A stretch of DNA of 64,000 nucleotides from Anaerovoracaceae bacterium. Lineage in GTDB: Bacteria; Bacillota; Clostridia; Peptostreptococcales; Anaerovoracaceae. Below, piece after piece: positions 40,438-54,896 of the stretch (the stretch's first letter is position 1; the number at the start of each line of letters is the position of its first letter). The DNA lies in assembly GCA_040766105.1 (NCBI GenBank), contig JAXGRD010000005.1, positions 138,178 through 202,177 of the forward strand, read 5' to 3'. Made by a program: the position numbers and the translations under genes. The notes below the pieces were generated by a model, which saw only the letters and a program-made list of their open reading frames with translations, did no database searches and was not told the origin of the DNA.

Positions 40438-41532
40438 ATGATGGACGTTTTTGTCATTGTATTGGCAGCCTTTGCTGCCTTGGGATTTTTGGATAAAGCC
40501 ATAGGTGGTCGATTCGGTTTTGATAGGGAAATTGATAGCGGGCTTTCCACCATGGGCACCATGTCCGTATATATTGTGGGTATCTACTGTGTAGGAACCG
40601 TACTCATAGAGGGGAATTCCGAAACGATTGGAAATGCCACCTCCTTTTTGCCTATGGATCCCTCCATCCTCTCGGGAGGAATACTCGCCCCGGATTTGGG
40701 CGGCCAACCTATCGCCATGGGTTTGGCGGAAGATCGGGACATGGGCTTCTTTTCGGGGCTGGTCATCGGTGGTTGTCTGGGACAATTCGTTAGCTTTCAA
40801 CTTCCCGTCATCTTTGCCGTTCTCGATATGGAGACCAAACAGAAGATGGTCAGAGGATTTATCTATGGAATCATAGCAATTCCTGCAGGTCTGGTTGTGG
40901 GTGGCTTAGTCATGGGAATTCCACCGGGCAAGCTCTTTCTCAACATCAGCATCATCACTCTGATTTGCCTTGTCCTCCTCATGGGATTCCTCAAGGCGCC
41001 GAAACAAACGGAGAAGATCATTCTTACCTTTAGCAATATCATTAAATTCATTTGTCAAATCCTCTTCGTGATTGTCATTGCCGGTCTATTCATCCCCAAG
41101 CTGTCCTTTGTTCCCGGCGATTTGGTCCTCAATGCCCTTCTCATTGTCTTCCGCATGTCCATCATCGTCTGCGGTGGTTTGGTCCTTACGAGAATTCTCA
41201 CTATGTATTTCGGGAAGGCCTTTGACTACTTGGGTGAGAAGATGGGGACGGACAAGCTGGGCATAATCGGCCTCATGCTGAACATGATCAATAGCATAAC
41301 GGCCATTACCTTGTTTAGCAAGATGGATGACCGTGGGAAGATTATCAACGGGGCCATCTGTGTTAGCGGCGCATATATTCTGGGAGGTCAATTGGCCTTT
41401 GTCATCTCCGTTGCTCCTGCCTACGTTTTTTATGGCTATATTGCATCTAAAATTACTGCTGGAGGACTGGCACTGGCCATCGCTCTTCTCGGGGAGAGAA
41501 AAAGAAATTTGAATCAGTCTCCCCTTGTATGA
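40438..41532 (+). CDS. EutH-family (ethanolamine-permease-like) membrane protein
   Basis: Polytopic, about 365 aa. The N-terminal LGFLDKAIGGRFG and LAPDLGGQPIAMGLAED resemble EutH (LIAAVDRIL..FGG / LACDMGGFFLAKELA) as I remember it. The start is set at the ATG at 40438. Confidence 0.55.
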   Translation: MMDVFVIVLAAFAALGFLDKAIGGRFGFDREIDSGLSTMGTMSVYIVGIYCVGTVLIEGNSETIGNATSFLPMDPSILSGGILAPDLGGQPIAMGLAEDRDMGFFSGLVIGGCLGQFVSFQLPVIFAVLDMETKQKMVRGFIYGIIAIPAGLVVGGLVMGIPPGKLFLNISIITLICLVLLMGFLKAPKQTEKIILTFSNIIKFICQILFVIVIAGLFIPKLSFVPGDLVLNALLIVFRMSIIVCGGLVLTRILTMYFGKAFDYLGEKMGTDKLGIIGLMLNMINSITAITLFSKMDDRGKIINGAICVSGAYILGGQLAFVISVAPAYVFYGYIASKITAGGLALAIALLGERKRNLNQSPLV

Positions 41533-41569
41533 TACAATGAATTAATTCATCATCGCAGAGGAGGTTGGG

Positions 41570-42958
41570 ATGGAAAAAAGAAAAGGGAAAGCGGAGCGGC
41601 AATACGAAGCAGACTTTTATAAAATCATGGCCGATAACTTCGGTGATGAAATTTTTGTGACCGACGGAAAGGGAATCACGATATTCGTCAATCCTGCGGC
41701 AGTGGAGGTCATTGGAAAACCTGTTACAGAAATCATCGGACGGCACGTAGACGACTTGGTTGAGGAAGGCTTCTTCAAGCCCAGTGTCACCATGGAGGTT
41801 CTTCGCCAGAGAAAGACCGTTTCCATTATCCAAAAGGTAAAGGAGGATAAGGCTGTTCTGGCAACGGGAGTCCCGATTTTCGGAGACGACCGAGAAAACA
41901 TCATCATGGTAATCAGCACCACAAAGGACGTGGATGCGCTAAATCACCTATTGGGAACCGTGGAATCTCAGCAGGAGGAAATCACCAACTTGCGAGACAA
42001 CGTGTTCTCTGAGGAGGGTTTTATCTCAGTGGACCATGGGATGAAAGAAATCAAGAATACCTTGGTAAAGATAGCCGACCTGGATATGGCAATCCTTGTA
42101 GAGGGAGAGACCGGTGTGGGGAAGGAAGTTGCGGTTCGGACCATTCATCACTTTGGGATTAACAGAAAGGGACCGCTTTTCAAGATAAACTGTGGGACAA
42201 TACCTGAAAATCTCATTGAATCGGAACTCTTTGGATATGAAGCCGGTGCGTTTACCGGTGCCGAGAGGAACGGGAAAAAAGGAAAGATCGAGATGGCCCA
42301 TGGGGGAACACTGTTTTTAGATGAAATTGGGGAGCTTCCGTTGAATTTGCAAGTCAAGCTCTTAGACTTCCTCCAGGAAGGGACTTTTACACGGGTGGGC
42401 GGTACCGAGCCGATAAAAATAAATGCGCGGGTGATTGCCGCCACCAACCGAGACCTTCGCAGGATGTGTGAAGAGGGCACTTTCCGAAAGGATTTGTACT
42501 ACCGCCTGAGCGTCATCCCTGTTCGAATTCCACCCCTTCGGGAACGACCGGATGACATCGATGCCTTGACTCGATACTTTGTTTCTCGGTACAACTCCAA
42601 ATACAGAAGCCACAAGGGAATCGATCCGGAGTTCTATGCCGTCGCCCGAAGCTACAGATGGCCGGGAAATATCCGTGAGTTGGAACATATGATTGAGAGA
42701 ATCTACGTGATGACGGAAGGCGAATTTATCAAGAAGGAGGATTTCGAGAAGATCATGCTAATGGAACACGAGGACCATCGCCAGGGCTCCAACGTAATCT
42801 GCATGGGAATCATGAACCTGAAAGAAGCGAAGTGGGAAGTGGAGAAACAATTGGTTCGTCATGCCTATCAAAAGGAGGGGAGTACCTATAAAGCTGCCAA
42901 GGTTTTGGGGGTGGATCAATCCACGGTGGTAAAGCTCTTAAAAAAGCACGAATCCTAG
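41570..42958 (+). CDS. sigma-54-dependent transcriptional activator (PAS - AAA+ - HTH), paralog 1
   Basis: GETGVGKE Walker A, ESELFGYEAGAFTGA (GAFTGA loop) and a C-terminal Fis-type HTH. The stop codon is TAG. Confidence 0.9.
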   Translation: MEKRKGKAERQYEADFYKIMADNFGDEIFVTDGKGITIFVNPAAVEVIGKPVTEIIGRHVDDLVEEGFFKPSVTMEVLRQRKTVSIIQKVKEDKAVLATGVPIFGDDRENIIMVISTTKDVDALNHLLGTVESQQEEITNLRDNVFSEEGFISVDHGMKEIKNTLVKIADLDMAILVEGETGVGKEVAVRTIHHFGINRKGPLFKINCGTIPENLIESELFGYEAGAFTGAERNGKKGKIEMAHGGTLFLDEIGELPLNLQVKLLDFLQEGTFTRVGGTEPIKINARVIAATNRDLRRMCEEGTFRKDLYYRLSVIPVRIPPLRERPDDIDALTRYFVSRYNSKYRSHKGIDPEFYAVARSYRWPGNIRELEHMIERIYVMTEGEFIKKEDFEKIMLMEHEDHRQGSNVICMGIMNLKEAKWEVEKQLVRHAYQKEGSTYKAAKVLGVDQSTVVKLLKKHES

Positions 42959-42973
42959 AACGACTGATGAAAT

Positions 42974-43020
42974 AAATCATGAGAATTGATGAAAAAAATC
43001 ATTATTTCTCATGATTTTTT
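42974..43020 (+). terminator. intrinsic terminator after activator 1
   Basis: AAATCATGAGAA-20 nt-TTCTCATGATTT followed by a T-run. Confidence 0.55.
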
Positions 43021-43086
43021 ATTGCGATAAAGCAATCGGTTCGATAGAAGCATTGAAATTACTGGATTCTTAATTGGTGAAATACT

Positions 43087-43102
43087 TGGCATTGATATTG
43101 CT
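43087..43102 (+). promoter_or_regulatory. sigma-54 (-24/-12) promoter TGGCAT-tgata-TTGCT
   Basis: GG-N10-GC spacing is exact. It lies 46 nt upstream of the corrinoid-protein ATG and directly downstream of a sigma-54 activator gene. Confidence 0.75.
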
Positions 43103-43147
43103 TAAGTAAAGGGCAGGAGTTATCATTTTTGTACAAAGGAGACAATA

Positions 43148-43801
43148 ATGGCAAGAGAAGATTTAATGAACAGAGCTTTCGAAGCAATCGTTGAAGCCGA
43201 TGAAGATATGGCTACCGAAGTGCTGGAAGAAGGCGAAAAGGAAGGAATCACTGCTGTAGAGCTGCTGCAGGAAGGATTCAGTAAGGGAATGAACGAGCTG
43301 GGTGACAGATTCGGTCGTGGAGAAGTTTTCCTTCCCGAATTGATCTTTGCAACAGAAGTCATGAAAGTCGTTACCGACAAGGTAGACGAAGAATTGGCTG
43401 CCAAGGGTGGCGAAGCAGAGGAAAAGGGCAAGATGATCATGGCGACCGTAGAAGGTGACGTTCACGATATCGGAAAAGGTATCTGCGTATCCATGCTGAA
43501 GTCTGTTGGCCTGGAAGTATATGACCTGGGACGTGAAGTACCTGCCGATGTCATCATCGAAAAGGCGAAGGAAGTCAACGCTGACATCATCGGAACTAGT
43601 GCTCTTCTCACCACCACAATGGTAGTGCAGAAGGAAATCGAAGAGAAGTTGGCTGCTCAGGACTTGAAGAAGGAGTTCAAGACCATGGTAGGTGGATCAC
43701 CGATTACACAGAGATGGGCTGACAAGATTGGTGCAGACGCTTACACCGAGGACGCGTCCGAGTGCTGCCAGAGAGCTCTGAAGTTTATTGATGAGAAATA
43801 A
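43148..43801 (+). CDS. mtbC: methyltransferase-cognate corrinoid (B12-binding) protein
   Basis: 217 aa. N-terminal helical cap plus a B12-binding domain with DVHDIGK (DxHxxG). The symbol is assigned only from adjacency to mtbB. Confidence 0.75.
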   Translation: MAREDLMNRAFEAIVEADEDMATEVLEEGEKEGITAVELLQEGFSKGMNELGDRFGRGEVFLPELIFATEVMKVVTDKVDEELAAKGGEAEEKGKMIMATVEGDVHDIGKGICVSMLKSVGLEVYDLGREVPADVIIEKAKEVNADIIGTSALLTTTMVVQKEIEEKLAAQDLKKEFKTMVGGSPITQRWADKIGADAYTEDASECCQRALKFIDEK

Positions 43802-43822
43802 GGAGTAGAAAGGAGGATTACA

Positions 43823-45214
43823 ATGAGTGATAAAAAGTATTTCACCCGTATGGGCGACGGCGAAGCAACATGGATGACCAAAGACGAGCTGAAAGCTGAT
43901 GTTCTTGCCGGAATGGAAGACGCCGTAGTTAAGGGCAAGTCCCAGCCTATGAGCGACGAAGATGTTGAGCACATGATGGAAATCTTGACCATGCCCAACA
44001 AGCTGGTCAGTGTTGAGCCGGGTAATGAAGCCATCACCACATTTGACGCAGGAACCTTGAAGGCACCTGTACGATCCGGATTGCCGGTAGACAGAGGAAC
44101 GGACATCCTCATGCACGAGAGAGTGCTTTGTTCCGATTCCATGGAATTGTGTAACACAGACTACAGCTACAAAGCAATCAAGAATATCGCACCGGAAGAA
44201 GGAATGGCAATGGAGGCTGTACAGCAGCAGACCATCATTCCCCTATTCTACGGCGCAATGCCCAACATGGGATTATACACCAAGCCTGACGGCCCGGTAG
44301 ATAACTGGTCCATGCTCCTTCCCGAAGGGAAAATCAAGGAAGCTATGGCGGCACAGGAAGAAGCTGCAGAGCTGTGTGCGGCAGATATGATCTATATCGG
44401 CTCCATCATGGCAGAAGCAGGTGCTGACGGTATCCAGTTTGATACAGCGGGAGCATCGGGAGATGCCGACGCTTTGGCAGCTCTCAATGCCGCAAAGGCA
44501 TTGTCCGAGAAATATCCGGACCTTTGCATCACCATGGGTATGGCAAACGAGTTCCACTTGGGAATGCACGGCAGACTCAAGTTTGAAGGAGACAAGATTG
44601 CGGGACAGTATCCGGCAGCACAGGTAAAGACTTGTGAAAAGGCCGGCGTACACAGCTACGGTTGCGTAGTTAACACCAACAGCAGCAAGTCCTTTGCATG
44701 GAACCTGGCGAGAGCCACAACTTATGTACAGCAGGCTACAAGAGTAGCGAACATTCCTGTTCTGGTAGATGTAGGAATGGGTGTTGGCGGAATTCCTCTG
44801 ACCAACGTTTCACCTGTTGATGCTACTTCGAGAGTATCCAAGACCATGATTGAAATCGGCAAAGCCGACGGATTGTAGATAGGTCACGGAGATACATTCG
44901 GAATGGCTGCCATTCACGAAGCTGCTGCCGGAATGGGCGGCGTACGAGCTGCCGGAGATCTGGTTGCACGTATGGTCTTCAAGGGAATGAAGCTAAACGA
45001 AGCAAAAGAATATGTCGCAGGAAAACTGGGATGCAGTACAATGGATTTGTCTGATGAGGCTGCCATGAAGGAGATCAGGGAAACTCTGGATATCGGTCAC
45101 ATCATCATCACTCCTCATGCATCTTACGGAATGGCTGCAAAGATTAAGATTGCAGAACTGCTGGACATCACTATTCCTAGCGTTGAGATGTTTAAGAAAC
45201 GTGTAGGTATCTAA
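43823..45214 (+). CDS. mtbB: dimethylamine:corrinoid methyltransferase with an in-frame TAG (pyrrolysine codon) at 44876-44878
   Basis: The track ORFs 43823-44878 and 44903-45214 share a frame and are joined by TAG-ATA-GGT-CAC-GGA-GAT-ACA-TTC-GGA. The combined 463 aa is colinear with Methanosarcina MtbB (PLFYGAMPNMGLY, GADGIQFDTAGASGD, MGMGVGGIP, RAAGDLVARM). Confidence 0.85.
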
Positions 45215-45222
45215 GAATATAT

Positions 45223-45268
45223 GGTATACAGCTCGCAGGAAGGACCTGCGGGCGTATACCTGATTTTT
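45223..45268 (+). terminator. strong intrinsic terminator after mtbB
   Basis: GGTATAC-a-GCTCGCAGG-aagga-CCTGCGGGC-GTATACC, about 16 bp with one bulge, followed by TGATTTTT. Confidence 0.7.
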
Positions 45269-45322
45269 GACTCATGTTACTTATCACTCCAATACGAAAG
45301 GAATATAGGAGGAGAAATAGAA

Positions 45323-46894
45323 ATGGAAAATAACAATTTAGGGAAAAAACAAAAGAAATTTGATGTTCCGCAAATCGTTGTCAGCTGTGCCGTCTTGTTT
45401 GCCTTCGTTGCATTTATGGCGATTAAGCCGGAGATGACACTGAATGCGGTTAACAGTTCCTTTGACTGGCTCATCAAATACTTTGGTTCCATGTTGCTCA
45501 TCTTTACCTTTACAGCTGTTATTATATCGGTATATTTTTGCTTAAGCGGTAAATACGGCAACATCAAATTAGGAGATGCCGAGCCCGAATACAACATGTT
45601 CAGTTATGTGGCCATGATGACCCTTGCTGCTGTTGCATCTGCACTGCTCTACTGGTCATTTACTGAGTGGGCATACTACTATGTGTCCCCGGGAATTGGA
45701 ATCGAGCCGGAATCCATACAGGCGGCGGAGGCTTCATTGGGTTACGCTTTCTTCCACTGGGGTATTTCCGGGCAAGCCATCTACGTGGTCATCGCCTTGG
45801 CACTATCCTATGCTTACTACATCAGAAAGGTGCCGGAACTGCAGACCAGTGCTATCTGTGTTGAGATGATGGGAGACAGATTGAACCCTACCGCCAGAAC
45901 CGGTCTGGGCAAGGTCATTGACTTCGTCGTTATCTTTGGAATCGTTGGTGGTCTTGGATGTTCTTTGGGTCTGGCAGTGCCTCTGGCCGGCGGCGCTTTG
46001 ACTCAACTCTTCGGAATTGACGTCACCTTCCCCATTCAGGTGGGCATCGTACTGTTCATCGCAGCGGTATTCACCTTTACATCCTTTATCGGAACGAAAA
46101 AAGGAATGAAGAACTTGAGTAACGGGTCGGTTATCTTGGCAGGCGTATTCCTGCTTTGGATCTTCTTGACAGGACCTACGGACTTTATCATGAAGAATAC
46201 AGCAAACTCCTTTGGATGGATGTTGGAAATCTTCCCAAGAGCTAGTCTCTTTACCGATCCCATTGCCGATACAGGCTTCCCGGAATCATGGACTCTGTAC
46301 TTCCAGGCATTCTACCTGAACTACGGTGCCATGATGGGAATCTTCATTACCAAAATCTCCAAGGGCAGAACCATCAGACAGCTCTCCATTGCATCCCTCA
46401 TCGGAATCAGTGTGGGCGGTTGGTTGGTGTTTGCTATAGATGGCAGTTTCTCCATCTACTCCCATGTGAACGGATTGACAGACGTTGTAGAGTTAGTAAA
46501 CAGTAACGTAGGAGAAGCCGGAATCTATCAGGTTCTTGAACTCTTGCCCGGCGGCGCAGTATTCCTTCCTGCTTTGGTGTTAATCATCATGGTTGGATTT
46601 GTGGCATCCTCTTTGGACTCCGCTTCCCTTTCGCTGTCACAGACGACCCAGCCCATACCGGAAAAAGACGGCAATGTCAACAGATGGCTTCGTGTGTTCT
46701 GGTGTATCGTATTGACGCTGGTACCACTGTCCATCATGTTTGTAGAAGCAAACTTCTCGATTCTAAAAATATTTTCAATCGTTGTATCCATACCGTTTAT
46801 GTTCGTGGTCATCTTCCTGATGTACAACTTCTTCAGATGGCTGAAGGAAGATGAGAGAGCAGGCAAATTGGACAATATCGGTTTGAAAAAATAA
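45323..46894 (+). CDS. BCCT-family (betaine/carnitine/choline-type) transporter
   Basis: 12-TM profile and BCCT signature ...WTLYFQAFYLNYGAMMGIFITKISKGRTIRQL. The ATG at 45323 lies behind AGGAGG. Confidence 0.8.
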   Translation: MENNNLGKKQKKFDVPQIVVSCAVLFAFVAFMAIKPEMTLNAVNSSFDWLIKYFGSMLLIFTFTAVIISVYFCLSGKYGNIKLGDAEPEYNMFSYVAMMTLAAVASALLYWSFTEWAYYYVSPGIGIEPESIQAAEASLGYAFFHWGISGQAIYVVIALALSYAYYIRKVPELQTSAICVEMMGDRLNPTARTGLGKVIDFVVIFGIVGGLGCSLGLAVPLAGGALTQLFGIDVTFPIQVGIVLFIAAVFTFTSFIGTKKGMKNLSNGSVILAGVFLLWIFLTGPTDFIMKNTANSFGWMLEIFPRASLFTDPIADTGFPESWTLYFQAFYLNYGAMMGIFITKISKGRTIRQLSIASLIGISVGGWLVFAIDGSFSIYSHVNGLTDVVELVNSNVGEAGIYQVLELLPGGAVFLPALVLIIMVGFVASSLDSASLSLSQTTQPIPEKDGNVNRWLRVFWCIVLTLVPLSIMFVEANFSILKIFSIVVSIPFMFVVIFLMYNFFRWLKEDERAGKLDNIGLKK

Positions 46895-46915
46895 ATTCAC
46901 TCTTTGTTCATGTCA

Positions 46916-46950
46916 AAAGGATGCAAGACCTGCTGTCTTGTGTCCTTTTG
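46916..46950 (+). terminator. intrinsic terminator after the BCCT transporter
   Basis: AAAGGATGCAAGAC-ctgct-GTCTTGTGTCCTTT: 14 bp including two G-U pairs, followed by a T-rich tail. Confidence 0.65.
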
Positions 46951-46996
46951 CTATTGGGTGTATCATGGGGTTAATAGCGGATGAAGCGAGGAGAAA

Positions 46997-48424
46997 ATGG
47001 AGAAAGAAAACCAAAAAAACTTTGATAACCTATCGGAAATCGTCCTTATTGAAGACCCTGTTGGCAACATTAAATATGTCAATAAGGCTTTTTGCGATTG
47101 TCACGGTGTTTCTCAAGAAGAGGCTATAGGAAGAAGTTGCTTCGACTTCATCATTCCCGAAGACCGTGAGCGGTGCACCATGCACAATGTGGTCACGCCT
47201 GAAAATTCCAGTTATCGAATCGAAGGAAGGTCTAAAAGGGTCGATGGCAAGATCATTTGGATTCAATATGTGGGAAAGGCTTTCTTCTCCGAAGAAGGAG
47301 AACTTCTTGAATTCCAGGAGTTGGGTGTGGACATCACCCAATGGAAGGAAAAGATTGCCGAAAAGACAAAGGAGCTGGAAAAGGCCAATGAACAGCTAAA
47401 CAGACCTAAAATTTCGGTAGCGGAGACCAAGGTTTCCGGTGGTAAGAATAGTAGCCGCAGAAATGCAGCCATATATAAGTTTTCCGACATTATTACGGCA
47501 AATCCCAAACTTATCGGTCAGAAGACTTATGCGGAAGCGGTAGCCGACGGAGAGTGTTCGGTCCTCATTGAAGGGGAAAGCGGCACCGGCAAGGAGTTGT
47601 TTGCCCAAGCCATCCATAACGGCAGCCGGCGAGTCAACGGTCCCTTCGTAGCGGTGAACTGTGGTGCCATTCCAACAGAGCTAATCAGCAGTGAGTTCTT
47701 TGGCTATGAGGAGGGGGCATTTACGGGAGCGGCAAGAGGCGGCAAGGCGGGAAAGTTTGAGCAGGCCTCGGGAGGAACTCTTTTTCTCGATGAAATCGGA
47801 GAAATGCCCATGGCGCAGCAGGTGGCACTTCTCAGGGTATTGGAGACAAAGTCGGTTACCAGGGTAGGGGGAAATAAAGAAATTCCCATAGATATTCGCA
47901 TTGTCTGTGCCACCAACAGGGACTTACTGGATGAAATCAACCAAAACCGCTTCAGGCGGGACCTGTACTATCGATTGAATATCATCAATATAAAGATCCC
48001 ACCCTTGCGGCAGAGGCGAGAAGATATATACTTGCTCATAGGATACTTCATCAAAAGGTTCGGAAGCAATTCCTTTGCCAAGAGGGCGGCCTTCAGCGAT
48101 GAACAGCTCATTCGACTTTACAACTATGACTGGCCGGGGAATGTGAGAGAATTACAAAACGCAGTAGAGAGGATGCGCTTTCGACCGGAAGAGACGGTAG
48201 ACGAGATCTTGGGAACCATGCAAAGTCAAACTTTGGGAGTGGATAAAAAAACAAAAGGGGAATTGAAAGACAAAGGAAAAATCGGGGAACAAGAAGCCTT
48301 GGAAGAAGCCTTGGAGTTGTGTGAGGGTAACATCAGTATGGTGGCCAGAAAATTAGGAATCTCACGGAAAACCGTATATAAGCGCATGGAGAAATACCAT
48401 ATCCAAGGTGGACAAAAACTGTAA
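46997..48424 (+). CDS. sigma-54-dependent transcriptional activator (PAS - AAA+ - HTH), paralog 2
   Basis: GESGTGKE, SSEFFGYEEGAFTGA and a C-terminal HTH. Confidence 0.9.
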   Translation: MEKENQKNFDNLSEIVLIEDPVGNIKYVNKAFCDCHGVSQEEAIGRSCFDFIIPEDRERCTMHNVVTPENSSYRIEGRSKRVDGKIIWIQYVGKAFFSEEGELLEFQELGVDITQWKEKIAEKTKELEKANEQLNRPKISVAETKVSGGKNSSRRNAAIYKFSDIITANPKLIGQKTYAEAVADGECSVLIEGESGTGKELFAQAIHNGSRRVNGPFVAVNCGAIPTELISSEFFGYEEGAFTGAARGGKAGKFEQASGGTLFLDEIGEMPMAQQVALLRVLETKSVTRVGGNKEIPIDIRIVCATNRDLLDEINQNRFRRDLYYRLNIINIKIPPLRQRREDIYLLIGYFIKRFGSNSFAKRAAFSDEQLIRLYNYDWPGNVRELQNAVERMRFRPEETVDEILGTMQSQTLGVDKKTKGELKDKGKIGEQEALEEALELCEGNISMVARKLGISRKTVYKRMEKYHIQGGQKL

Positions 48425-48431
48425 CCTTAAC

Positions 48432-48463
48432 AAAAACTGTAACCCTGAAAGGTTACAGTTTTT
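48432..48463 (+). terminator. intrinsic terminator after activator 2
   Basis: AAAAACTGTAACC-ctgaaa-GGTTACAGTTTTT. Confidence 0.7.
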
Positions 48464-48518
48464 GCATACGCAAGAAAGGAGAGTCTATAAAAAGGGTTGA
48501 AATCAAAGGGTTGTATTT

Positions 48519-48534
48519 TGGCACAGAAGTTGCT
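48519..48534 (+). promoter_or_regulatory. sigma-54 promoter TGGCAC-agaag-TTGCT (consensus)
   Basis: Perfect TGGCAC-N5-TTGC, 55 nt upstream of the mttB ATG. Confidence 0.85.
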
Positions 48535-48588
48535 CTATATAGTTGCAACAAATCGTTTTTCATAAAGAACGTTAGATGGGAGGTCATT

Positions 48589-50067
48589 ATGGCAAAACGA
48601 AAAAAATCAACAGTTGGCGCATTGGATAATTTGAAGTGTGCCAATTCCTATGGGAATAAACTTACAGATGATGAACTTTACGCGATTCATGCAGCAAGTC
48701 TGGAAGTTCTGGCTGAAATCGGAATCAAGGTGGAAAGCAAGAAAGCGCAAAAGATATTTGCTGACGGCGGTGCCACCATTGATGGTGACTTTGTAAGAAT
48801 TCCTCCTTCCTTGGTGGAAGAATGCATCCGCACGGCTCCTTCCGTGATTAAATTGGCAGGCAGAAACCCCAAGAACGATTACATTATCAAGCAAAAGAAA
48901 GTAGCGTTTATCAACTTTGGCGAGGGGGTCAATGTAATCGATCCCTATACAAAGGAATACAGAAGGTCCACCAAGGAAGACCTGGGTCGCAACACTAAGG
49001 TTGCCGACTCCCTAAAGGTGCTTCCCGTTGCCTATCGATCTGTTGCTGCGCAAGATAAGCCGGGTGCAGTACAGGCGCTTCACAATATGGAAGTCATGTT
49101 TCACAACACATCCAAGCATATTTTTATCGGACCCGATGGTGCGGTAAATGCGTCGAAAATTATCGACATGGCCGCATTTATCATGGGCGGCAAGGACGTT
49201 CTTCGGGAGAGACCCATTGTGACATTTAACGTTTGTCCCACCAGCCCTCTCCAACTGAACCCCACGGCGGCAGATACCATTATCGTCGGTGCGGAACATG
49301 GAATCCCCAGCAATGTTATATCCATGGCACTGGCAGGGGCAACCGGACCGGTTACCATGGCCGGCGTCTTGGTTACACACAATGCAGAGGTTCTTTCTGC
49401 TGTGGTTCTTTCCCAGCTGACCAAAAAGGGCGCACCGGTACTGTACGGTAGTTCTACATCCATGATGGACATGCGCCACCTCACTACGCCGGTAGGGGCA
49501 CCGGAATTGGCAATGATCAGCAACGCCGTTGCACAGTTGTCCCAGTACTATCTGCTACCAAGTTTCGTAGCCGGTGGTTAGGCAGACAGCAAGTTACCCG
49601 ATGCACAGGCTGCTCACGAAAAGACCTTAACCGCTATGATGGCTGCCCAGGGCGGCGCCAACCTGATATACGGTGCAGGAATGATCGAACTGGGCATGAC
49701 CTTCGACCTTGCCCAACTGATTATCGACTCAGAAATCTACAAGATGGTATTGCATACTGTAAAGGGATTTGAAGTCAATGAAGAAACGTTGGCTCTTGAT
49801 GTAATCAAGGAGATTAAAACAGGAGAATTCGTTTCTCATCCTCATACAGTGACCAACTTTAAGGACATCCAGTCTCACTCCAACGTGATCAACCGACAGT
49901 CGAGAGAAGCTTGGCTGGCAGGCGGATCCAAGGATATGACAACGGTTGCCTACGAAAAAGCAATAGATATTCTTGAAAATTACACGCCGGATCCCCTTAC
50001 GGATGAACAGGCAGAATATATCAAAAAAATCGTGGAAGATGCGGAAGAGGAATACGGAGTGAAGTAA
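48589..50067 (+). CDS. mttB: trimethylamine:corrinoid methyltransferase with an in-frame TAG (pyrrolysine codon) at 49579-49581
   Basis: The track ORFs 48511-49581 and 49636-50067 share a frame. The junction reads ..[28 protein letters not shown].., matching ..LPSYVAGS-Pyl-SDAKVPDDQAGHEKTMT.. of Methanosarcina MttB as I recall it. The ATG at 48589 (MAKRKK) lies behind GGGAGG. Confidence 0.85.
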
Positions 50068-50078
50068 AGGAGAAAATC

Positions 50079-50711
50079 ATGAGCAAGGTATTAAGAAATC
50101 TTAGAGAAGCCATTGAAGACGGCGACATGGATGAAGTGGTGGAGCTGGTTCAGGAAGCATTGGATGACGAAGTCCCCGCCCAAGAAATCCTCAACGACGG
50201 CCTCATTGAAGGGATGAACGAAGTGGGAGATATGTTTAAGGATGGAGAAATGTACGTTCCTGAAGTACTCATGTCGGCCAATGCCATGGATGCGGGGATG
50301 GAAATTCTCAAACCCTACCTGAAGGAAGGGGATGTGAAGAAAGTTGGGAAGGTGGTATTCTGCACTGTAAAAGGAGACCTTCACGATATCGGAAAGAAGC
50401 TCTGCGTCATGATGATGGAAGGCGGCGGCTTTGATGTAGTGGACTTAGGTGTAGATGTAGGTGTTGAAGATATCATGGCGGCAGTGGAAGATCATCAGCC
50501 CAATATTCTGGCAATGTCTGCCATGTTAACCACGACGATGGTTACCATGGACGAGGCAGTAAATGCACTGGAGGAAGCGGGAAAAGATGACATAAAGGTG
50601 ATGGTAGGGGGCGCACCTTTGTCGGGAGATTATGCAGAAAATATTTCTGCCAACTATTCCGAAGATGCCATTGCCGCTGTCGCTTTAGCAAACAAACTTT
50701 TGGGAAACTGA
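50079..50711 (+). CDS. mttC: methyltransferase-cognate corrinoid (B12-binding) protein
   Basis: 210 aa with DLHDIGK (DxHxxG). The symbol comes from adjacency to mttB. Confidence 0.75.
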   Translation: MSKVLRNLREAIEDGDMDEVVELVQEALDDEVPAQEILNDGLIEGMNEVGDMFKDGEMYVPEVLMSANAMDAGMEILKPYLKEGDVKKVGKVVFCTVKGDLHDIGKKLCVMMMEGGGFDVVDLGVDVGVEDIMAAVEDHQPNILAMSAMLTTTMVTMDEAVNALEEAGKDDIKVMVGGAPLSGDYAENISANYSEDAIAAVALANKLLGN

Positions 50712-50738
50712 TTTACGGTTCATTGGCTATTTCTCGTG

Positions 50739-50804
50739 GTAACGTGATATAATTCCAGTCAAGGGTTCGTTGGGCACCAGCCCGATGAACCCTTGTACCG
50801 TTAC
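50739..50804 (+). other. three-tier hairpin of unknown function between mttC and activator 3
   Basis: Outer stem GTAACG/CGTTAC, middle stem CAAGGGTTC/GAACCCTTG, inner stem GGGC-acca-GCCC. No T-run follows. Confidence 0.35.
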
Positions 50805-50824
50805 TGCCATAGGAAAGGAAAGTT

Positions 50825-52237
50825 ATGATGGAACACAAAGATGAAAAGATGGATATTCTTTTTAAGGTTATGGACAACGAAAATGACGTGACCTTAACAG
50901 ACGGAAAGGGTGTTGTCATCAGAATCAGTGATTCCTACGAAAAGCACTACAATGTTTCAAAAGATGAAGTGATAGGAAAGTCCATTTGGGAATTGGAAGA
51001 TGTGGGCATATTTAAACCCTCCGTCACCGCCATCGTGCTGGAGAAGAAGTGCAAGGCGACTATATTGCAGAAGAACATGATGGGGGAAAGCATTCTCACT
51101 ACAGGAGTTCCCATTTTTGATGATGAAGGAGAAATTGAATATGTGATCAGCTTCAATTCCATTGACATCGCCAACATGAATTCCCTTCAAGAAAAGTACA
51201 ATAAACTAACGGAATTAATGCAAGCATACAACGAAGAAATCAATGCTCTCAGGATGGAGGAAATCAAGGACAAGGAATTGGTCACCAAAAGCAACCACAT
51301 GGAGAAGATTAAAACATTGGTAGACCAAGTTGCCGACACCCATGCAAACATCTTGATAACAGGAGAAACGGGTGTGGGGAAGAGCATGATTGCAAAAATT
51401 GTCCACCAAAAGAGTGGAAGGGTGGACGGCCCGTTTGTGGAAATCAACTGCGGTACCATACATGAAAACCTAATCGAATCAGAACTCTTTGGCTACGAGA
51501 AGGGGGCCTTTACGGGAGCCAACGAAAAGGGAAAGATGGGCAAGATAGAACTTGCCAACGGTGGCACTCTTTTCCTGGATGAAATCGGGGAACTTTCCTT
51601 GGGCATGCAGATGAAACTGCTGCAGGCGATACAGGAAAAAGAAATTACCCGCGTAGGAGGGCTGAATAAAATCAAGGTGGATTTTCGCCTCATTGCAGCC
51701 ACCAATCGAGATTTAAAGAAGCGAATCAAGGAGAATCTTTTCCGAGAAGATCTATACTATCGATTGAACGTGATCCCCATCTCTATTCATCCCTTGCGAG
51801 ATCGCCCCGATGATATTCGCCCCTTGGTGGAGAACTTTTTGGTTCGTGCCAATGGAAAGTACAACCGAAATGTGACGATCCAAGAAGAGGCAATTGCCTT
51901 ACTGGAAAAGCATAGCTGGCCCGGAAATATAAGGCAAGTGGAGAACTTAGTGGAACGTCTGGTCATCATGTCCGTAGGTGACTTGGTTACGGCTTCCGAT
52001 CTTCCCACAGAAATCCGATATGGTGGAAGAAGCCATTACGGCATTGGCGAAACGGACTCACTGAAAGAGATACTGGAGAGCGTGGAAAAGCAGATTGTGA
52101 AAGAAGCCTACGAAAAAGGGGGAACCAGTATTGCCGTAGGGAAAACCTTGAAAATCAGCCAAGCGACCGCTGCAAGGAAGTTGCGTAAATACATTCCCGG
52201 ATATGCGGAACAGCCCAAGAAAGAGGGTAGTCAATAA
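50825..52237 (+). CDS. sigma-54-dependent transcriptional activator (PAS - AAA+ - HTH), paralog 3
   Basis: GETGVGKS, ESELFGYEKGAFTGA and a C-terminal HTH. Confidence 0.9.
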   Translation: MMEHKDEKMDILFKVMDNENDVTLTDGKGVVIRISDSYEKHYNVSKDEVIGKSIWELEDVGIFKPSVTAIVLEKKCKATILQKNMMGESILTTGVPIFDDEGEIEYVISFNSIDIANMNSLQEKYNKLTELMQAYNEEINALRMEEIKDKELVTKSNHMEKIKTLVDQVADTHANILITGETGVGKSMIAKIVHQKSGRVDGPFVEINCGTIHENLIESELFGYEKGAFTGANEKGKMGKIELANGGTLFLDEIGELSLGMQMKLLQAIQEKEITRVGGLNKIKVDFRLIAATNRDLKKRIKENLFREDLYYRLNVIPISIHPLRDRPDDIRPLVENFLVRANGKYNRNVTIQEEAIALLEKHSWPGNIRQVENLVERLVIMSVGDLVTASDLPTEIRYGGRSHYGIGETDSLKEILESVEKQIVKEAYEKGGTSIAVGKTLKISQATAARKLRKYIPGYAEQPKKEGSQ

Positions 52238-52417
52238 TGACTAATAGTCATCTGTGATTACTCCGGTAAATCAGCATTATGCGTCATTCCCGTCCCATTC
52301 TAGTCAAAAATGAATACACCTAAGTTGAGACCTTCGTGAGTCTTTGAAATCATCCTTAGAAACCCTTAAATTTCAATGAAATTCAACCATACTCTTTCAC
52401 ACGACATGCCATTTTTA

Positions 52418-52433
52418 TGGCATGTTCTTTGCT
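52418..52433 (+). promoter_or_regulatory. sigma-54 promoter TGGCAT-gttct-TTGCT
   Basis: Exact GG-N10-GC spacing, 54 nt upstream of the aminotransferase ATG. Confidence 0.75.
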
Positions 52434-53839: not shown

Positions 53840-53856
53840 GATAAGGAGAAGAAAAA

Positions 53857-54879
53857 ATGAAGAAAGTATTGGTAGTAGGATACGGTGTAATTGGGCAGAG
53901 ATTGGCGGACGGTGTGGCGGCCCAGGAAGATATGGAACTGGTAGGGGTGGTAGATGCTGCACCAACCTTGGGCTTGATGGCACTGAGGGAGAAGGGAATG
54001 CCATATAAACTGTACACCCCCAACCAAGAGAAAAAAGAACTGTTGGAAGAGAAAGGCTTTGAAATAACCGGTGTATTAGAGGATGTTCTGCCTGAAGTGG
54101 ATATCGTCTTAGATTCCACCAGCGCTGGCGTGGGTGCCCAAAACAAGGAGCTATATCTAAAGCATGGAAAAAAGGCCATCTTCCAAGGGGGTGAAAGCAA
54201 TGAAATTGCAGACATCTTTTTCCACGGCTATGCCAACTATGAAAAGGGCGTAGGGAAAGACTATTTAAAACTCACATCCTGTAATACTACGGGACTCATT
54301 CGAGCAATTCACTGCTTGGATAAGACGGTGGGAATTGAAAAAGTTGCCATTACCATTGTGAGAAGAGTCGCCGATCCGGGGGACTACCACAGAGGCTTGA
54401 CCAATGCGCTCCAGGTAGACAAGGCTCCCAGTCACCAAGCGGTGGACCTGATGACCATCATGCCTCACATTGATGCCACCGGTATACTGGTCCATACTCC
54501 AGTGACCCACGGCCACTTCATCACGGTTGTGGCAACACCGAAAGAGGACATCTCCGTGGAAGAAGTGAAAAAGGCCTTTGAGAGCCATGACAGAATCAGA
54601 GTCGTCAGCTTGGATCAGGGGTTCCTAGGCAATGCCTCTCTCTTCAAATATGCAAGAGATCTAGGTCGACCAAGGGGAGACCTATATGAAATATGTGTTT
54701 GGGAAGATACCATCGTAAAATCCGGAAAGGACATCATGTTTGGAATTCACATACCACAAGAATCCATTACCATTCCCGAGACCATCGACGGAATACGAGC
54801 TGCACTGGAAATGCAAACCGACGGAGCAGATGCCGTTGCAGCGACCAACAAGTATTTGGGGTTGCCGTCATGGAAGTAG
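53857..54879 (+). CDS. type II (archaeal-type) phosphorylating glyceraldehyde-3-phosphate dehydrogenase homolog
   Basis: 340 aa, colinear with archaeal GAPDH as I recall it: GYGVIGQRLADGV, KAIFQGGE, active-site SCNTTGL, VRRVADP, PSHQ. The stop codon is TAG. Confidence 0.8.
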   Translation: MKKVLVVGYGVIGQRLADGVAAQEDMELVGVVDAAPTLGLMALREKGMPYKLYTPNQEKKELLEEKGFEITGVLEDVLPEVDIVLDSTSAGVGAQNKELYLKHGKKAIFQGGESNEIADIFFHGYANYEKGVGKDYLKLTSCNTTGLIRAIHCLDKTVGIEKVAITIVRRVADPGDYHRGLTNALQVDKAPSHQAVDLMTIMPHIDATGILVHTPVTHGHFITVVATPKEDISVEEVKKAFESHDRIRVVSLDQGFLGNASLFKYARDLGRPRGDLYEICVWEDTIVKSGKDIMFGIHIPQESITIPETIDGIRAALEMQTDGADAVAATNKYLGLPSWK

Positions 54880-54896
54880 GCAGCAAGATCAAACAT

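What the first reader, a model, noticed from the sequence alone, without database searches (positions are those of the whole stretch)
41570..52433. Three paralogous PAS/sigma-54 activators, each with its own -24/-12 promoter, form a modular regulon
Each activator gene (41570, 46997, 50825) has the PAS - AAA+(GAFTGA) - HTH architecture and ends with a terminator or hairpin. Each is followed within 130-180 bp by TGGCAT-N5-TTGCT, TGGCAC-N5-TTGCT or TGGCAT-N5-TTGCT. These promoters lie 46-55 nt before mtbC, mttB and the aminotransferase respectively. I know of no described sigma-54/PAS-sensor control of bacterial pyrrolysine-dependent methylamine methyltransferases. The PAS domains may sense the individual amines, which would give substrate-specific switching.
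Basis: partly seen in the sequence, partly recalled or inferred. Interest (0 to 1): 0.6.

Follow-up and report, generated by a model that had tools for sequence, protein, structure and literature searches.

The report
Sigma-54 switches for methylamine methyltransferase operons
An anaerobic-digester bacterium (Anaerovoracaceae) puts its pyrrolysine-dependent dimethylamine and trimethylamine methyltransferase operons, and an unrelated neighbouring amino-acid operon, each under its own sigma-54 activator, private enhancer repeats and -24/-12 promoter; this is real and conserved in relatives, but it is the ordinary clostridial way of wiring catabolic operons and 2025 Sporomusa data already show it for the same genes.

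Summary
Three PAS-AAA+(GAFTGA)-HTH activators (41570, 46997, 50825) are each followed by a strict TGGCAY-N5-TTGCT site 46-55 nt before mtbC, mttB and an aminotransferase gene. There are 3 such sites in the window against 0.18 expected. rpoN is intact in the genome.

New here: each activator has its own repeat motif between its stop codon and its promoter.
- Activator 1: ATGA-W6-TCAT.
- Activator 2: AAAACTGTAACC.
- Activator 3: TAGTCAA-N3-TGAMTA.

Each motif occurs only there in the 2-Mb genome and is conserved in orthologous loci. These are therefore three independent single-operon modules, not one regulon.

Activator 2 belongs to a different subfamily from activators 1 and 3. The third module (GABA-type transaminase, type II GAPDH, PGK, LarA-like) also occurs in relatives that lack mtbB, so it is unrelated to methylamines.

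The genome holds 24 such activators and 25 strict promoters, so the layout is stereotyped. In close relatives an activator-1-type enhancer and sigma-54 promoter also drive the MT2-cobW-ramA-pyl operon. In this genome that operon sits elsewhere, behind a GntR gene.

Sensing of the amines by the PAS domains is untested. Published Sporomusa TSS data and a 2025 regulon survey reduce the novelty: this is a new member of a known kind.

The parts
41509..41538 (+). Sigma-70-like promoter of the activator 1 gene (TTGAAT-18-TACAAT with an upstream TG); a prediction only
   Evidence: Consensus scan. Its -10 hexamer overlaps the enhancer-type palindrome at 41537-41550.
41537..41550 (.). Third copy of the activator 1 palindrome (ATGAATTAATTCAT), just upstream of the activator 1 ribosome-binding site; a candidate autoregulatory operator
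   Evidence: one of only three ATGA-W6-TCAT sites in the 2-Mb genome. Among the nine orthologous loci scanned, only L010 has a strict copy upstream of the activator gene.
41570..42958 (+). Activator 1 (462 aa): PAS, AAA+ with GAFTGA, HTH_50; a sigma-54 enhancer-binding protein for the mtbCB operon
   Evidence: Orthologues at 53-64% identity sit upstream of mtbC in nine loci, plus L078.
42967..43002 (.). Enhancer (UAS) of activator 1: two ATGA-W6-TCAT palindromes (42967-42980 and 42989-43002), 22 bp centre to centre. The centre of the promoter-proximal copy lies about 93 bp upstream of the GG of the -24 element.
   Evidence: The motif is found after the activator 1 stop codon in all nine orthologous loci, and nowhere else in this genome except at 41537.
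42975..43020 (+). Terminator hairpin of the activator 1 gene followed by a U-run; its arms are built from the enhancer repeats
   Evidence: -22.5 kcal/mol, z -6.0.
43087..43102 (+). Sigma-54 promoter 1 (TGGCAT-N5-TTGCT). The transcription start is predicted near 43112.
   Evidence: A GG-N10-GC promoter is conserved in front of mtbC, or of mtbB where no mtbC precedes it (L013, L018), in 12 of 12 close-clade loci.
43148..43801 (+). mtbC, the dimethylamine corrinoid protein
   Evidence: TIGR02370 and MtbC models.
43823..45214 (+). mtbB, the dimethylamine methyltransferase, with an in-frame TAG (pyrrolysine) at 44876-44878
   Evidence: PF09505 at 569 bits, matched 2-462 of 463 when TAG is read through.
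45223..45268 (+). Strong hairpin followed by a U-run between mtbB and the BCCT gene; a likely partial terminator or attenuator
   Evidence: -36.2 kcal/mol for the 126-nt stretch, z -4.5.
45323..46894 (+). BCCT-family transporter. The likely start is the ATG at 45323 after a GGAGGAG ribosome-binding site; the open frame begins at 45221.
   Evidence: A BCCT gene follows mtbB in nearly all close-clade loci.
46914..46955 (+). Terminator hairpin after the BCCT gene
   Evidence: -25 kcal/mol, z -5.5.
46997..48424 (+). Activator 2 (475 aa): PAS (PAS_3/PAS_9) with a conserved CxC, AAA+ with GAFTGA, Fis-type HTH_8; a sigma-54 enhancer-binding protein for mttBC
   Evidence: Forty-six proteins share this type of PAS domain. 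Their contexts L079, L080 and L081 place such a protein upstream of a sigma-54 promoter and a TAG-split mttB.
48415..48462 (.). Enhancer of activator 2: AAAACTGTAACC three times (48415 and 48433 direct, 48451-48462 inverted). It overlaps the last codons of the gene and its terminator hairpin.
   Evidence: These are the only three copies in the genome. Related TGTAAC/GTTACA repeats occur at the same place in L005, L006, L007, L079 and L081.
48519..48534 (+). Sigma-54 promoter 2 (TGGCAC-N5-TTGCT). The transcription start is predicted near 48545.
   Evidence: It is conserved in L005, L006, L007, L079 and L081, with some variation in the -12 element.
48589..50067 (+). mttB, the trimethylamine methyltransferase, with an in-frame TAG at 49579-49581
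   Evidence: PF06253 at 342 bits, matched 21-498 of 500.
50079..50711 (+). mttC, a corrinoid protein
50760..50795 (+). Strong GC-rich hairpin after mttC, without a U-run
   Evidence: -39.9 kcal/mol, z -5.8.
50825..52237 (+). Activator 3 (470 aa): PAS, AAA+ with GAFTGA, HTH_50; a sigma-54 enhancer-binding protein for the transaminase operon
   Evidence: Orthologues at 62-69% identity accompany the same operon in G008 and G023.
52228..52316 (.). Enhancer of activator 3: TAGTCAATAATGACTA (52228-52243, overlapping the stop codon) and TAGTCAAAAATGAATA (52301-52316)
   Evidence: These are the only two matches in the genome. The same TAGTCAA...TGA motif lies between the orthologous activator and its promoter in G008 and G046.
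52403..52424 (.). Perfect palindrome ACATGCCAT-TTTT-ATGGCATGT overlapping the -24 element; function unknown
52418..52433 (+). Sigma-54 promoter 3 (TGGCAT-N5-TTGCT). The transcription start is predicted near 52444.
   Evidence: The G008 orthologue has TGGCACACAAATTGCT at the same place.
52487..57753 (+). Target operon of activator 3: a GABA-type class-III transaminase, a type II (archaeal-type) GAPDH homologue, a PGK homologue, a LarA-like racemase and a Rieske protein. It is not a methylamine operon.
   Evidence: TIGR00700 at 526 bits, cut-off 506.65; NF003251 at 409 bits. The operon is conserved with activator 3 in G008 and G023, which lack mtbB.

Best explanation
The region holds three independent, locally wired sigma-54 circuits of the one-component clostridial type. 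Each has the same order:
- the activator gene (PAS sensor, AAA+ motor with GAFTGA, HTH);
- activator-specific enhancer repeats embedded in or beside the gene's own terminator hairpin;
- a -24/-12 promoter 64-184 bp further on;
- a catabolic operon.

Proposed mechanism:
1. Sigma-54 RNA polymerase sits as a closed complex on TGGCAY-N5-TTGCT.
2. The activator binds its own repeats through the HTH.
3. When the PAS domain receives its signal, the activator assembles into an active AAA+ ring.
4. The ring contacts sigma-54 by DNA looping and uses ATP to open the promoter.

Module 1 switches on mtbC-mtbB(Pyl) and, by read-through of an internal hairpin, a BCCT transporter. Module 2 switches on mttB(Pyl)-mttC. 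Module 3 switches on an unrelated omega-amino-acid-type operon.

What is shown:
- domain architecture and catalytic motifs;
- an intact rpoN;
- strict promoters;
- motifs that are unique in the genome and conserved in orthologues;
- conserved synteny.

What is inferred:
- binding of each activator to its motif;
- the transcription start positions;
- inducibility;
- the identity of the signals. My best guess is DMA and/or TMA, or a closely linked metabolite, for modules 1 and 2.
For: Architecture and motifs.

rpoN.

Promoters:
- 3 in the window against 0.18 expected.
- 25 genome-wide against 1-7 in shuffles.
- Nearly all lie just upstream of a ribosome-binding site and an ATG.
- 24 activators are present, and at least 13 have a strict promoter roughly 100-220 bp downstream on the same strand.

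Enhancer motifs:
- ATGA-W6-TCAT occurs 3 times in the genome, all flanking activator 1.
- AAAACTGTAACC occurs 3 times, all at the 3' end of activator 2.
- TAGTCAA-N3-TGAMTA occurs twice, both after activator 3.

Conservation:
- Activator 1, its enhancer, its promoter and mtbC-mtbB-BCCT recur in L005-L012, L014, L018 and L078.
- Activator 2, TGTAAC repeats, a promoter and TAG-split mttB-mttC recur in L005-L007 and L079-L081.
- Activator 3, its enhancer, its promoter and the transaminase recur in G008.

Domain identities:
- PAS domains are conserved among orthologues (45-84%) about as well as the AAA+ domain, but are only 22-36% identical between the three activators.
- HTH identity tracks conservation of the enhancer motif.

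Experimental precedent: Sporomusa sphaeroides KIAC has dRNA-seq transcription starts with a SigL motif at the mttC-mttB and pylSc operons beside a sigma-54 regulator. Their read counts differ by up to about 4000-fold across the four growth conditions in the paper's expression table, and the transcription units from these starts are listed for betaine-grown cells (PMC12456013 supplement).
Against: - There are no transcript 5' ends, induction data or binding data for this organism.
- The only metatranscriptome that holds the region has a depth of 2-8 and shows no boundaries.
- The enhancer of activator 2 is only about 64 bp from its -24 element, which is short for DNA looping.
- The upstream autoregulatory copy of the activator 1 motif was found upstream of the activator gene in only one of the nine orthologous loci scanned (L010).
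- The ligand cannot be read from the sequence. The PAS domains have only generic PAS relatives in the PDB.
- The PAS domain of activator 2 carries conserved cysteines (CxC in 42-44 of 46 sequences). These could mean a redox or metal input rather than, or besides, an amine.
- A second Pyl mttB-mtbB cluster in the same genome has no sigma-54 promoter and lies beside a PocR/AraC regulator. Sigma-54 is therefore not the only control of methylamine genes here.
Confidence: 0.85

Rival explanations
1. One reading: the three activators form one coordinated, modular amine regulon. Their PAS domains would sense TMA, DMA and a third amine, giving substrate-specific switching along one pathway.
For: - The three modules are adjacent and on the same strand.
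- Orthologue-specific conservation of the PAS domains fits module-specific ligands.
- In relatives, the activator-1-type enhancer occurs at two or three promoters, including the MT2-ramA-pyl operon. A small regulon therefore exists there.
Against: - In this genome the three enhancer motifs differ, and each is confined to its own module.
- Module 3 is found with its activator in G008 and G023, which lack mtbB, and is not next to mtt genes there.
- Activator 2 is from a different subfamily.
- The genome has no mtmB.
- L014 and L018 have a single activator in front of mtbCB-BCCT-mttBC.
Confidence: 0.12
2. The circuits are real, but the PAS domains read a general cellular state, such as redox, energy, or corrinoid or methyl-THF status, or they need a partner protein. 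The amines themselves would not be the signal. Specificity would come only from the enhancers.
For: - PAS domains of clostridial activators are commonly proposed to be redox or energy sensors (PMC6615313).
- The PAS domain of activator 2 has conserved cysteines.
- The PDB holds no relative with an amine-binding PAS domain.
Against: - The PAS domains differ strongly between modules but are conserved within orthologue groups. This is what ligand-specific sensors would show.
- A genome with 24 activators that mostly carry single PAS domains, each beside a different catabolic operon, is hard to reconcile with one shared signal.
- In Sporomusa the homologous operons are among the genes that vary most between growth substrates.
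Confidence: 0.25
3. The -24/-12 matches and the repeats are chance or purely terminator sequences. The operons would then be transcribed from sigma-70 promoters or by read-through from the activator genes.
For: - The repeats do form the terminator hairpins of the activator genes.
- Sigma-70-like hexamers can be found almost anywhere in this AT-rich intergenic DNA (34 found against 27.6 expected).
Against: - The promoter count is far above chance.
- The GG-N10-GC element is kept at the same place in every orthologous locus although the flanking sequence diverges.
- The repeat motifs are conserved in sequence, not just in pairing.
- One copy of the activator 1 motif lies upstream of the gene, where it cannot act as a terminator.
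Confidence: 0.03

Closest known systems
SigL (sigma-54) promoters of the mttC-mttB and pylSc-pylBCD-pylSn-mtbB operons of Sporomusa sphaeroides KIAC, beside the sigma-54 regulator KIAC18_001665 (PMC12456013, supplementary TSS and expression tables)
   Same: - A bacterial, pyrrolysine-dependent methylamine methyltransferase cluster.
- An adjacent sigma-54-interacting regulator.
- The TGGCA-N6-TTGC promoter type.
- Strong variation in expression between growth substrates.
   Different: - A different class (Negativicutes).
- One regulator between two divergent promoters that also cover the pyl genes. Here there are two regulators from different subfamilies, each with a private enhancer, and the pyl operon lies elsewhere without a sigma-54 promoter.
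- The paper's text highlights the betaine cluster; the mtt/pyl promoters appear only in its tables.
- The enhancers are not defined there.
One-component PAS-type sigma-54 activators of Clostridiales (Nie et al. 2019, PMC6615313). PrdR, the proline reductase activator, is the best-scoring named family.
   Same: - PAS-AAA+-HTH architecture.
- The activator gene lies next to its target operon.
- Enhancer repeats lie upstream of a TGGCAC-N5-TTGCT promoter.
- Control of amino-acid or amine catabolism.
   Different: - All three score far below the PrdR cut-off: 372-391 bits against 795.
- They lack the roughly 130 N-terminal residues of the PrdR model.
- The 2019 regulon reconstruction lists no methyltransferase targets.
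Structurally solved enhancer-binding proteins: NtrC1 (1NY5, 4LY6), NtrC, FleQ, ZraR, PspF
   Same: The AAA+ sigma-54 interaction domain aligns over about 250 residues with E-values of 1e-56 to 1e-68 and carries GAFTGA.
   Different: Most of those are response regulators or have no sensor domain. Here a single cytoplasmic PAS domain replaces the receiver domain.
Predicted sigma-54 regulon survey that lists MttB (COG5598) in class Clostridia (PMC12316311)
   Same: A computational link between -24/-12 promoters and MttB-family genes.
   Different: - That link is at the level of a COG, which includes the many non-pyrrolysine MttB homologues.
- No activators or enhancers are described, and MtbB is not covered.
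- The paper misreads the enzyme as a step in B12 biosynthesis.
TMA-dependent expression of the pyrrolysine system in Acetohalobium arabaticum (Prat et al. 2012; recalled from my own knowledge and cited in PMC8318568)
   Same: Substrate-dependent switching of Pyl-dependent TMA metabolism in a Firmicute.
   Different: No regulator or promoter type has been assigned there, as far as I could find. I could not fetch that genome to test it.

Membership tests
[quoted passage not shown] | A sigma-54 interaction AAA+ domain (PF00158) with Walker A and Walker B motifs | tested here: met
   219-234 bits against a cut-off of 20.2. GExGxGK(E/S) and LFLDE in all three.
[quoted passage not shown] | The GAFTGA loop that contacts sigma-54 | tested here: met
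   exact GAFTGA at residues 226, 240 and 227.
[quoted passage not shown] | A C-terminal DNA-binding HTH | tested here: met
   HTH_50 in activators 1 and 3, HTH_8 (Fis type) in activator 2.
[quoted passage not shown] | Sigma-54 (rpoN) encoded in the same genome | tested here: met
   one 461-aa gene with the AID, CBD and DBD domains.
[quoted passage not shown] | A cognate -24 GG / -12 GC promoter in front of the target operon | tested here: met
   (3 sites against 0.18 expected). Conserved in orthologous loci.
[quoted passage not shown] | Upstream activator sequences bound by the protein | tested here: inconclusive
   Repeats that are unique in the genome and conserved in orthologues lie at the expected place. 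Binding itself cannot be tested with these tools.
[quoted passage not shown] | ATP-dependent, rpoN-dependent activation of transcription | not testable with these tools
   This needs reporter assays or in vitro transcription.
PrdR (NF041552, equivalog) | A whole-protein score above the curated cut-off of 795 bits | tested here: not met
   375, 372 and 391 bits, covering model positions from about 130 to 577 only. They are PrdR-like, not PrdR.
Pyrrolysine-dependent methylamine methyltransferases (MtbB, MttB) | A full-length family match across a single in-frame TAG | tested here: met
   PF09505 matched 2-462 of 463; PF06253 matched 21-498 of 500.
Pyrrolysine-dependent methylamine methyltransferases (MtbB, MttB) | pylT and pylS/B/C/D present in the genome | tested here: met
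   pylB, pylC, pylSc, pylD and pylSn all score above their cut-offs; a tRNA-like sequence with a CUA anticodon lies between ramA and pylB, although aragorn and Rfam did not call it.
A single regulon (several operons under one regulator) | A shared operator or enhancer motif at the member promoters | tested here: not met
   three different motifs, each confined to one module.

The most novel reading that the evidence does not exclude
Activators 1 and 2 are direct cytoplasmic sensors of dimethylamine and trimethylamine. In the ancestral Anaerovoracaceae layout, the activator-1-type enhancer and a sigma-54 promoter also drive MT2-cobW-ramA-pylT-pylBCSD. That layout is kept in G061 and, in variant form, in the gut isolate L078 (where MT2 sits in the mtbCB operon and cobW-ramA-pyl follows the activator-2-like gene); G062 and G063 keep pylS a few kb downstream on the same strand. 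Reading UAG as pyrrolysine would then itself be switched on by methylamine through a tightly closed sigma-54 promoter. This would give a concrete mechanism for the substrate-dependent genetic-code expansion seen in Acetohalobium. The present genome would be a natural variant in which the pyl operon has been uncoupled and placed behind a GntR regulator.
Probability: 0.3. Interest if true: 0.65.

Novelty: new member of a known kind. Interest (0 to 1): 0.4.

Why it matters
Regulation of bacterial pyrrolysine-dependent TMA and DMA demethylation is almost unstudied. TMA matters both in gut and cardiovascular research and as a methane precursor in digesters.

This locus offers three things:
- Two compact, self-contained sensor, enhancer and promoter cassettes with defined candidate binding sites. 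They could be tested directly and, if the ligands are the amines, used as TMA and DMA biosensors.
- A natural comparison, both within one genome and across relatives, between methylamine gene sets that depend on sigma-54 and sets that do not.
- A lead on how expression of the pyrrolysine machinery is coupled to substrate availability in relatives.

As biology of sigma-54 it is ordinary. It follows the stereotyped clostridial one-component design, found 24 times in this genome.

Tried and rejected
1. Metatranscriptome contigs (X20, X24) laid on 40300-54000. Depth was 2-8, the pieces were fragmentary and no 5' boundaries could be seen. A further search for RNA runs found nothing better.

2. The idea that module 3 is the missing monomethylamine step. 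The genome has no mtmB, and aminotransferases sit near mtbB here and in earlier notes of this scan. I rejected the idea for this operon because the activator 3 / transaminase / GAPDH-II / PGK / LarA set occurs in G008 and G023, which lack mtbB.

3. A search for a sigma-54 promoter or an activator 1 motif in front of this genome's MT2-cobW-ramA-pyl cluster. None was found. It has a GntR gene and sigma-70-like hexamers instead.

4. PDB sequence searches with the two PAS domains. Only generic PAS, LOV or HIF-type hits came back, at E-values of 1e-6 or worse, and they say nothing about a ligand. I did not run structure prediction because it could not identify the ligand.

5. aragorn and Rfam did not call tRNA-Pyl. 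I read it by eye.

6. My strict promoter pattern missed orthologues with a degenerate -12 element (ATGC, CTGC, GTGC). These were recovered by reading the alignments.

7. Misassembly of the mttC-to-activator-3 junction was ruled out. Contigs from four independent studies span it.

8. Three family-search calls failed because of frame or TAG errors and were repeated.

Full report
**1. Observation**

The window region 40.3-57.8 kb reads as follows on the + strand:
- a EutH-like permease;
- activator 1 (41570-42958);
- mtbC, mtbB (one in-frame TAG) and a BCCT transporter;
- activator 2 (46997-48424);
- mttB (one in-frame TAG) and mttC;
- activator 3 (50825-52237);
- a class-III transaminase, type II GAPDH, PGK, a LarA-like protein and a Rieske protein.

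All three activators are PAS + Sigma54_activat + AAA lid + HTH proteins. All have an exact GAFTGA, a Walker A and a Walker B. Their AAA+ domains align with NtrC1, FleQ, ZraR and PspF structures at E-values of 1e-56 to 1e-68.

The pattern TGGCAYNNNNNTTGCW occurs exactly three times in the 64 kb, against 0.18 expected. The sites are at 43087, 48519 and 52418. They lie 46, 55 and 54 nt before the start codons of mtbC, mttB and the transaminase.

rpoN is present once and intact, with the AID, CBD and DBD domains in 461 aa.

**2. Genome context**

The window lies in a 2.0-Mb genome of 6 contigs, 99% complete and 47% G+C. Its closest named relatives are Anaerovoracaceae (Clostridiales Family XIII) MAGs and Anaerovorax. 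The stretch is found nearly identical in anaerobic digester, wastewater, bioreactor and fertilizer metagenomes from several studies. Contigs from four of those studies span the mttC-to-activator-3 junction, so the gene order is real.

The genome encodes 24 full sigma-54 activators. It has 25 strict -24/-12 sites, against 1-7 in shuffled genomes. Nearly all of these sites lie just before a ribosome-binding site and a start codon. At least 13 activators have such a promoter roughly 100-220 bp downstream on the same strand. The three modules are therefore instances of a stereotyped design, not a special invention of this locus.

**3. Enhancers**

I compared the intergenic DNA of orthologous loci. 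Each activator turned out to have its own repeat motif.

*Activator 1.*
- The motif is the 14-bp palindrome ATGA-W6-TCAT. It occurs at 42967-42980 and 42989-43002, 22 bp apart.
- The centre of the promoter-proximal copy lies about 93 bp upstream of the GG of the -24 element.
- A third copy at 41537-41550 overlaps the -10 hexamer of a sigma-70-like promoter of the activator gene itself.
- These are the only three matches in the whole genome.
- The motif follows the activator 1 stop codon in all nine orthologous loci and in the gut isolate L078.

*Activator 2.*
- The motif is AAAACTGTAACC, twice direct and once inverted, at 48415-48462.
- These are again the only three copies in the genome.
- Related TGTAAC/GTTACA repeats occur at the same place in L005-L007, L079 and L081.

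*Activator 3.*
- The motif is TAGTCAA-N3-TGAMTA, at 52228-52243 and 52301-52316.
- These are the only two matches in the genome.
- The same motif occurs in G008 and G046.

They are built from these repeats, so the same DNA serves as terminator and enhancer.

Because the motifs differ and each is private, the three circuits are independent. They are not one regulon.

**4. Relationship of the three activators**

In a tree of the 24 activators, numbers 1 and 3 fall in one well-supported 10-member clade. They are 42% identical, and number 3 is sister to another gene on contig C1. Number 2 falls in the other major clade (33% identical to number 3) and has a Fis-type HTH_8 instead of HTH_50. The DMA and TMA regulators are therefore not sister duplicates of one methylamine sensor.

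Domain by domain, the identities are as follows:

| Comparison | PAS | HTH |
|---|---|---|
| Activator 1 vs its orthologues | 45-70% (one 5'-truncated sequence excepted) | 60-70% |
| Activator 2 vs its orthologues | 65-84% | 41-51% |
| Between the three window activators | 22-36% | 26-37% |

Within orthologue groups the PAS identity is similar to that of the AAA+ domain. The HTH figures follow the enhancers: the activator 1 motif is conserved among orthologues, whereas the activator 2 motif drifts.

This pattern fits module-specific signals and module-specific DNA sites. It does not identify the signals. PDB sequence searches with the PAS domains give only generic PAS hits.

The activator-2-type PAS domain defines a family of 46 proteins. 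In it a CxC pair is conserved in 42-44 of 46 sequences, a third cysteine in 38 of 46, and several aromatic residues are near-invariant. A metal or redox input cannot be excluded.

**5. Conservation of the wiring**

A scan of one genome per prokaryotic species with MtbB gave 47 loci.

- *Close clade (MtbB at 70% identity or more, 17 loci).* Twelve loci carry a GG-N10-GC promoter in front of mtbC, or of mtbB where no mtbC precedes it. Nine of these also show the activator 1 orthologue upstream within the stretch fetched. The other five are distinct: they have no neighbouring activator, mtbC or BCCT gene (L015-L017, L019, L020). L005, L006 and L007 also have activator 2, its promoter and mttBC, exactly as in the window.
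- *Single-activator variants.* In L014 and L018 mttBC simply follows the BCCT gene behind the single activator 1. Separate control of TMA and DMA genes is thus a feature of only part of the clade.
- *Distant clade (Emergencia, Ihubacter and others; MtbB about 50% identical, 30 loci).* These loci have mtbC-mttB-mtbB-mtbC, or a shorter variant without mttB, with no activator and no correctly placed promoter within 6 kb.
- *Activator-2-type regulators sampled from metagenomes and isolates.* They sit before a sigma-54 promoter and a TAG-split mttB-mttC (L079, L080, L081). In the gut isolate L078 one sits directly before cobW-ramA-pylBCD.

**6. The rest of the pathway**

This genome's MT2 (URO-D family, fused to a thioredoxin-like domain), cobW, ramA-like activase, pylT and pylB-pylC-pylSc-pylD-pylSn lie on another contig. 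They follow a GntR-family gene and have no -24/-12 site and no activator 1 motif.

The relatives differ:
- In the closest relative, G061, the same operon follows mttC directly. It is preceded by an activator-1-type palindrome and TGGCATATAAGTTGC.
- L006 shows two perfect palindromes and a promoter before MT2.
- In G062 and G063 pylS lies a few kb downstream of the mtbB locus on the same strand, consistent with a contiguous cluster.

So in relatives activator 1 plausibly runs a small regulon that includes the pyrrolysine machinery. In the present genome that link has been broken.

The genome also holds other methyltransferase sets:
- A second, Emergencia-type set: a divergent PocR/AraC regulator, mttB2(TAG), mtbB2(TAG), a Na/H-antiporter-family gene and mtbC. 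It has no sigma-54 promoter.
- A sigma-54-driven operon of a class I/II aminotransferase, mtbB3(TAG) and an mtbC copy 93% identical to the window's mtbC.
- A sigma-54-driven AcnX-BCCT-x-MttB(non-Pyl)-corrinoid operon beside three tandem activators.
- No mtmB.

**7. The third module**

The transaminase scores above the equivalog cut-off for 4-aminobutyrate transaminase, and the dehydrogenase scores as type II GAPDH. G008 and G023 carry activator 3 orthologues (69% and 62% identical) with the same transaminase-GAPDH-PGK-x-LarA operon (63-84% and 57-83% identity). Neither genome has mtbB. In G008 the gene upstream of the activator is not mttC. The adjacency to the mtt module in this genome is therefore incidental.

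**8. Mechanism**

I commit to the standard enhancer-binding-protein mechanism for each module:
1. A closed sigma-54 holoenzyme complex sits at -24/-12.
2. The activator is bound at its private repeats.
3. A PAS-gated AAA+ ring assembles.
4. The ring contacts sigma-54 through GAFTGA by DNA looping.
5. ATP hydrolysis drives promoter opening.

The parts are shown. Binding, transcription starts, induction and ligands are inferred. The copy of the activator 1 palindrome over its own -10 hexamer suggests negative autoregulation. I rate this weakly, because a strict copy upstream of the activator gene was found in only one (L010) of the nine orthologous loci scanned.

**9. What is known already**

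- PAS-type one-component sigma-54 activators beside catabolic operons are the rule in Clostridiales. That survey lists no methyltransferase targets (PMC6615313).
- A 2025 survey lists MttB (COG5598) among predicted sigma-54 targets in Clostridia (PMC12316311).
- The supplementary tables of the Sporomusa sphaeroides KIAC study give dRNA-seq transcription starts with a SigL motif at KIAC18_001663 (corrinoid protein, followed by mttB) and at KIAC18_001662 (pylSc, heading the string of same-strand pyl, mtbB, corrinoid and MT2 genes). Both lie next to the sigma-54 regulator KIAC18_001665. Read counts for these genes differ by up to about 4000-fold across the four growth conditions tabulated (PMC12456013).
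- Earlier notes of this scan (AI notes, leads only) report the same wiring in more than a dozen other genomes.
- I found no paper that defines the enhancers, the ligands or the activator families for these operons.

**10. Verdict**

This is a new member of a known kind. The useful additions are:
- defined enhancer motifs;
- two distinct activator families tied to Pyl methyltransferase genes across Anaerovoracaceae;
- a lead that connects sigma-54 control to expression of the pyrrolysine machinery in relatives.

Noticed in passing
G000:C4:292000-311000 (L004), minus strand: The pyrrolysine cluster lies outside the window. Its order is: GntR regulator, MT2 (URO-D family fused to a thioredoxin-like domain), cobW-like GTPase, RACo/RamA-like activase, pylT (CUA anticodon, read by eye), pylB, pylC, pylSc, pylD, pylSn. 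It has no sigma-54 promoter. In the relative G061 the same operon follows mttC behind an activator-1-type enhancer and a sigma-54 promoter; in L078 MT2 lies in the sigma-54-driven mtbCB operon and cobW-ramA-pylBCD follows the activator-2-like gene; in G062 and G063 pylS lies a few kb downstream of the mtbB locus on the same strand.
   Followed up: yes
G000:C1:472269-478817 (L072): A second methylamine set of the Emergencia type: a PocR/AraC regulator (divergent), mttB2 with TAG, mtbB2 with TAG, a Na/H-antiporter-family gene and an mtbC-like gene. No -24/-12 site lies within 14 kb. One genome thus holds both sigma-54-dependent and sigma-54-independent Pyl methyltransferase sets.
   Followed up: partly
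G000:C4:36000-54000 (L073): Three tandem sigma-54 activators, two of them with variant loops (GVYTGA, GAYTDA; the third has GSFTGA), lie next to two sigma-54 operons. One is AcnX, BCCT, an unknown gene, a non-Pyl MttB homologue and a corrinoid protein. The other is a class I/II aminotransferase, mtbB3 (TAG) and an mtbC copy 93% identical to the window's mtbC, which suggests recent duplication or gene conversion.
   Followed up: partly
whole genome: No mtmB (PF05369) is present, although there are three mtbB and two Pyl-mttB genes. The fate of monomethylamine is unknown.
   Followed up: partly
window 52403-52424: A perfect palindrome, ACATGCCAT-TTTT-ATGGCATGT, overlaps the -24 element of the third promoter. 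There is no -12 partner on the other strand. It may be an operator for a second regulator.
   Followed up: no
window 45223-45268: A strong hairpin with a U-run lies between mtbB and the BCCT gene, whose real start is probably 45323. The transporter may be expressed by partial read-through or attenuation.
   Followed up: partly
window 52487-59657: The operon comprises a GABA-type transaminase, an archaeal-type (type II) GAPDH, PGK, a LarA-like racemase, a Rieske protein and a 630-aa protein with no family match. The first four genes, with one further gene before larA, are conserved with the activator in G008 and G023. An ordinary bacterial GAPDH lies next to rpoN elsewhere (L001). The operon looks like an undescribed route from an omega-amino acid through an aldehyde and an acyl phosphate to ATP.
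   Followed up: partly
window 46997-47350 (activator 2 PAS domain): A CxC pair (C33, C35) is conserved in 42-44 of 46 family members, C60 in 38 of 46 and C48 in 29 of 46. W88, Y91, F97, F106, F49 and F51 are near-invariant. This could be a metal or redox site or an aromatic ligand pocket.
   Followed up: partly
window 36927-41532: An Ech/complex-I-like membrane hydrogenase module (NuoH-, NuoB- and NuoD/NiFe-like subunits and a four-cluster ferredoxin subunit) and a EutH-like permease lie directly upstream of activator 1.
   Followed up: no
L005:846-3700: In the closest relative, a further activator-1-type palindrome and a sigma-54 promoter precede an operon of a PadR regulator, a radical-SAM protein, an unknown protein and a C_GCAxxG_C_C protein, upstream of the activator 1 orthologue. 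The window has no counterpart.
   Followed up: partly
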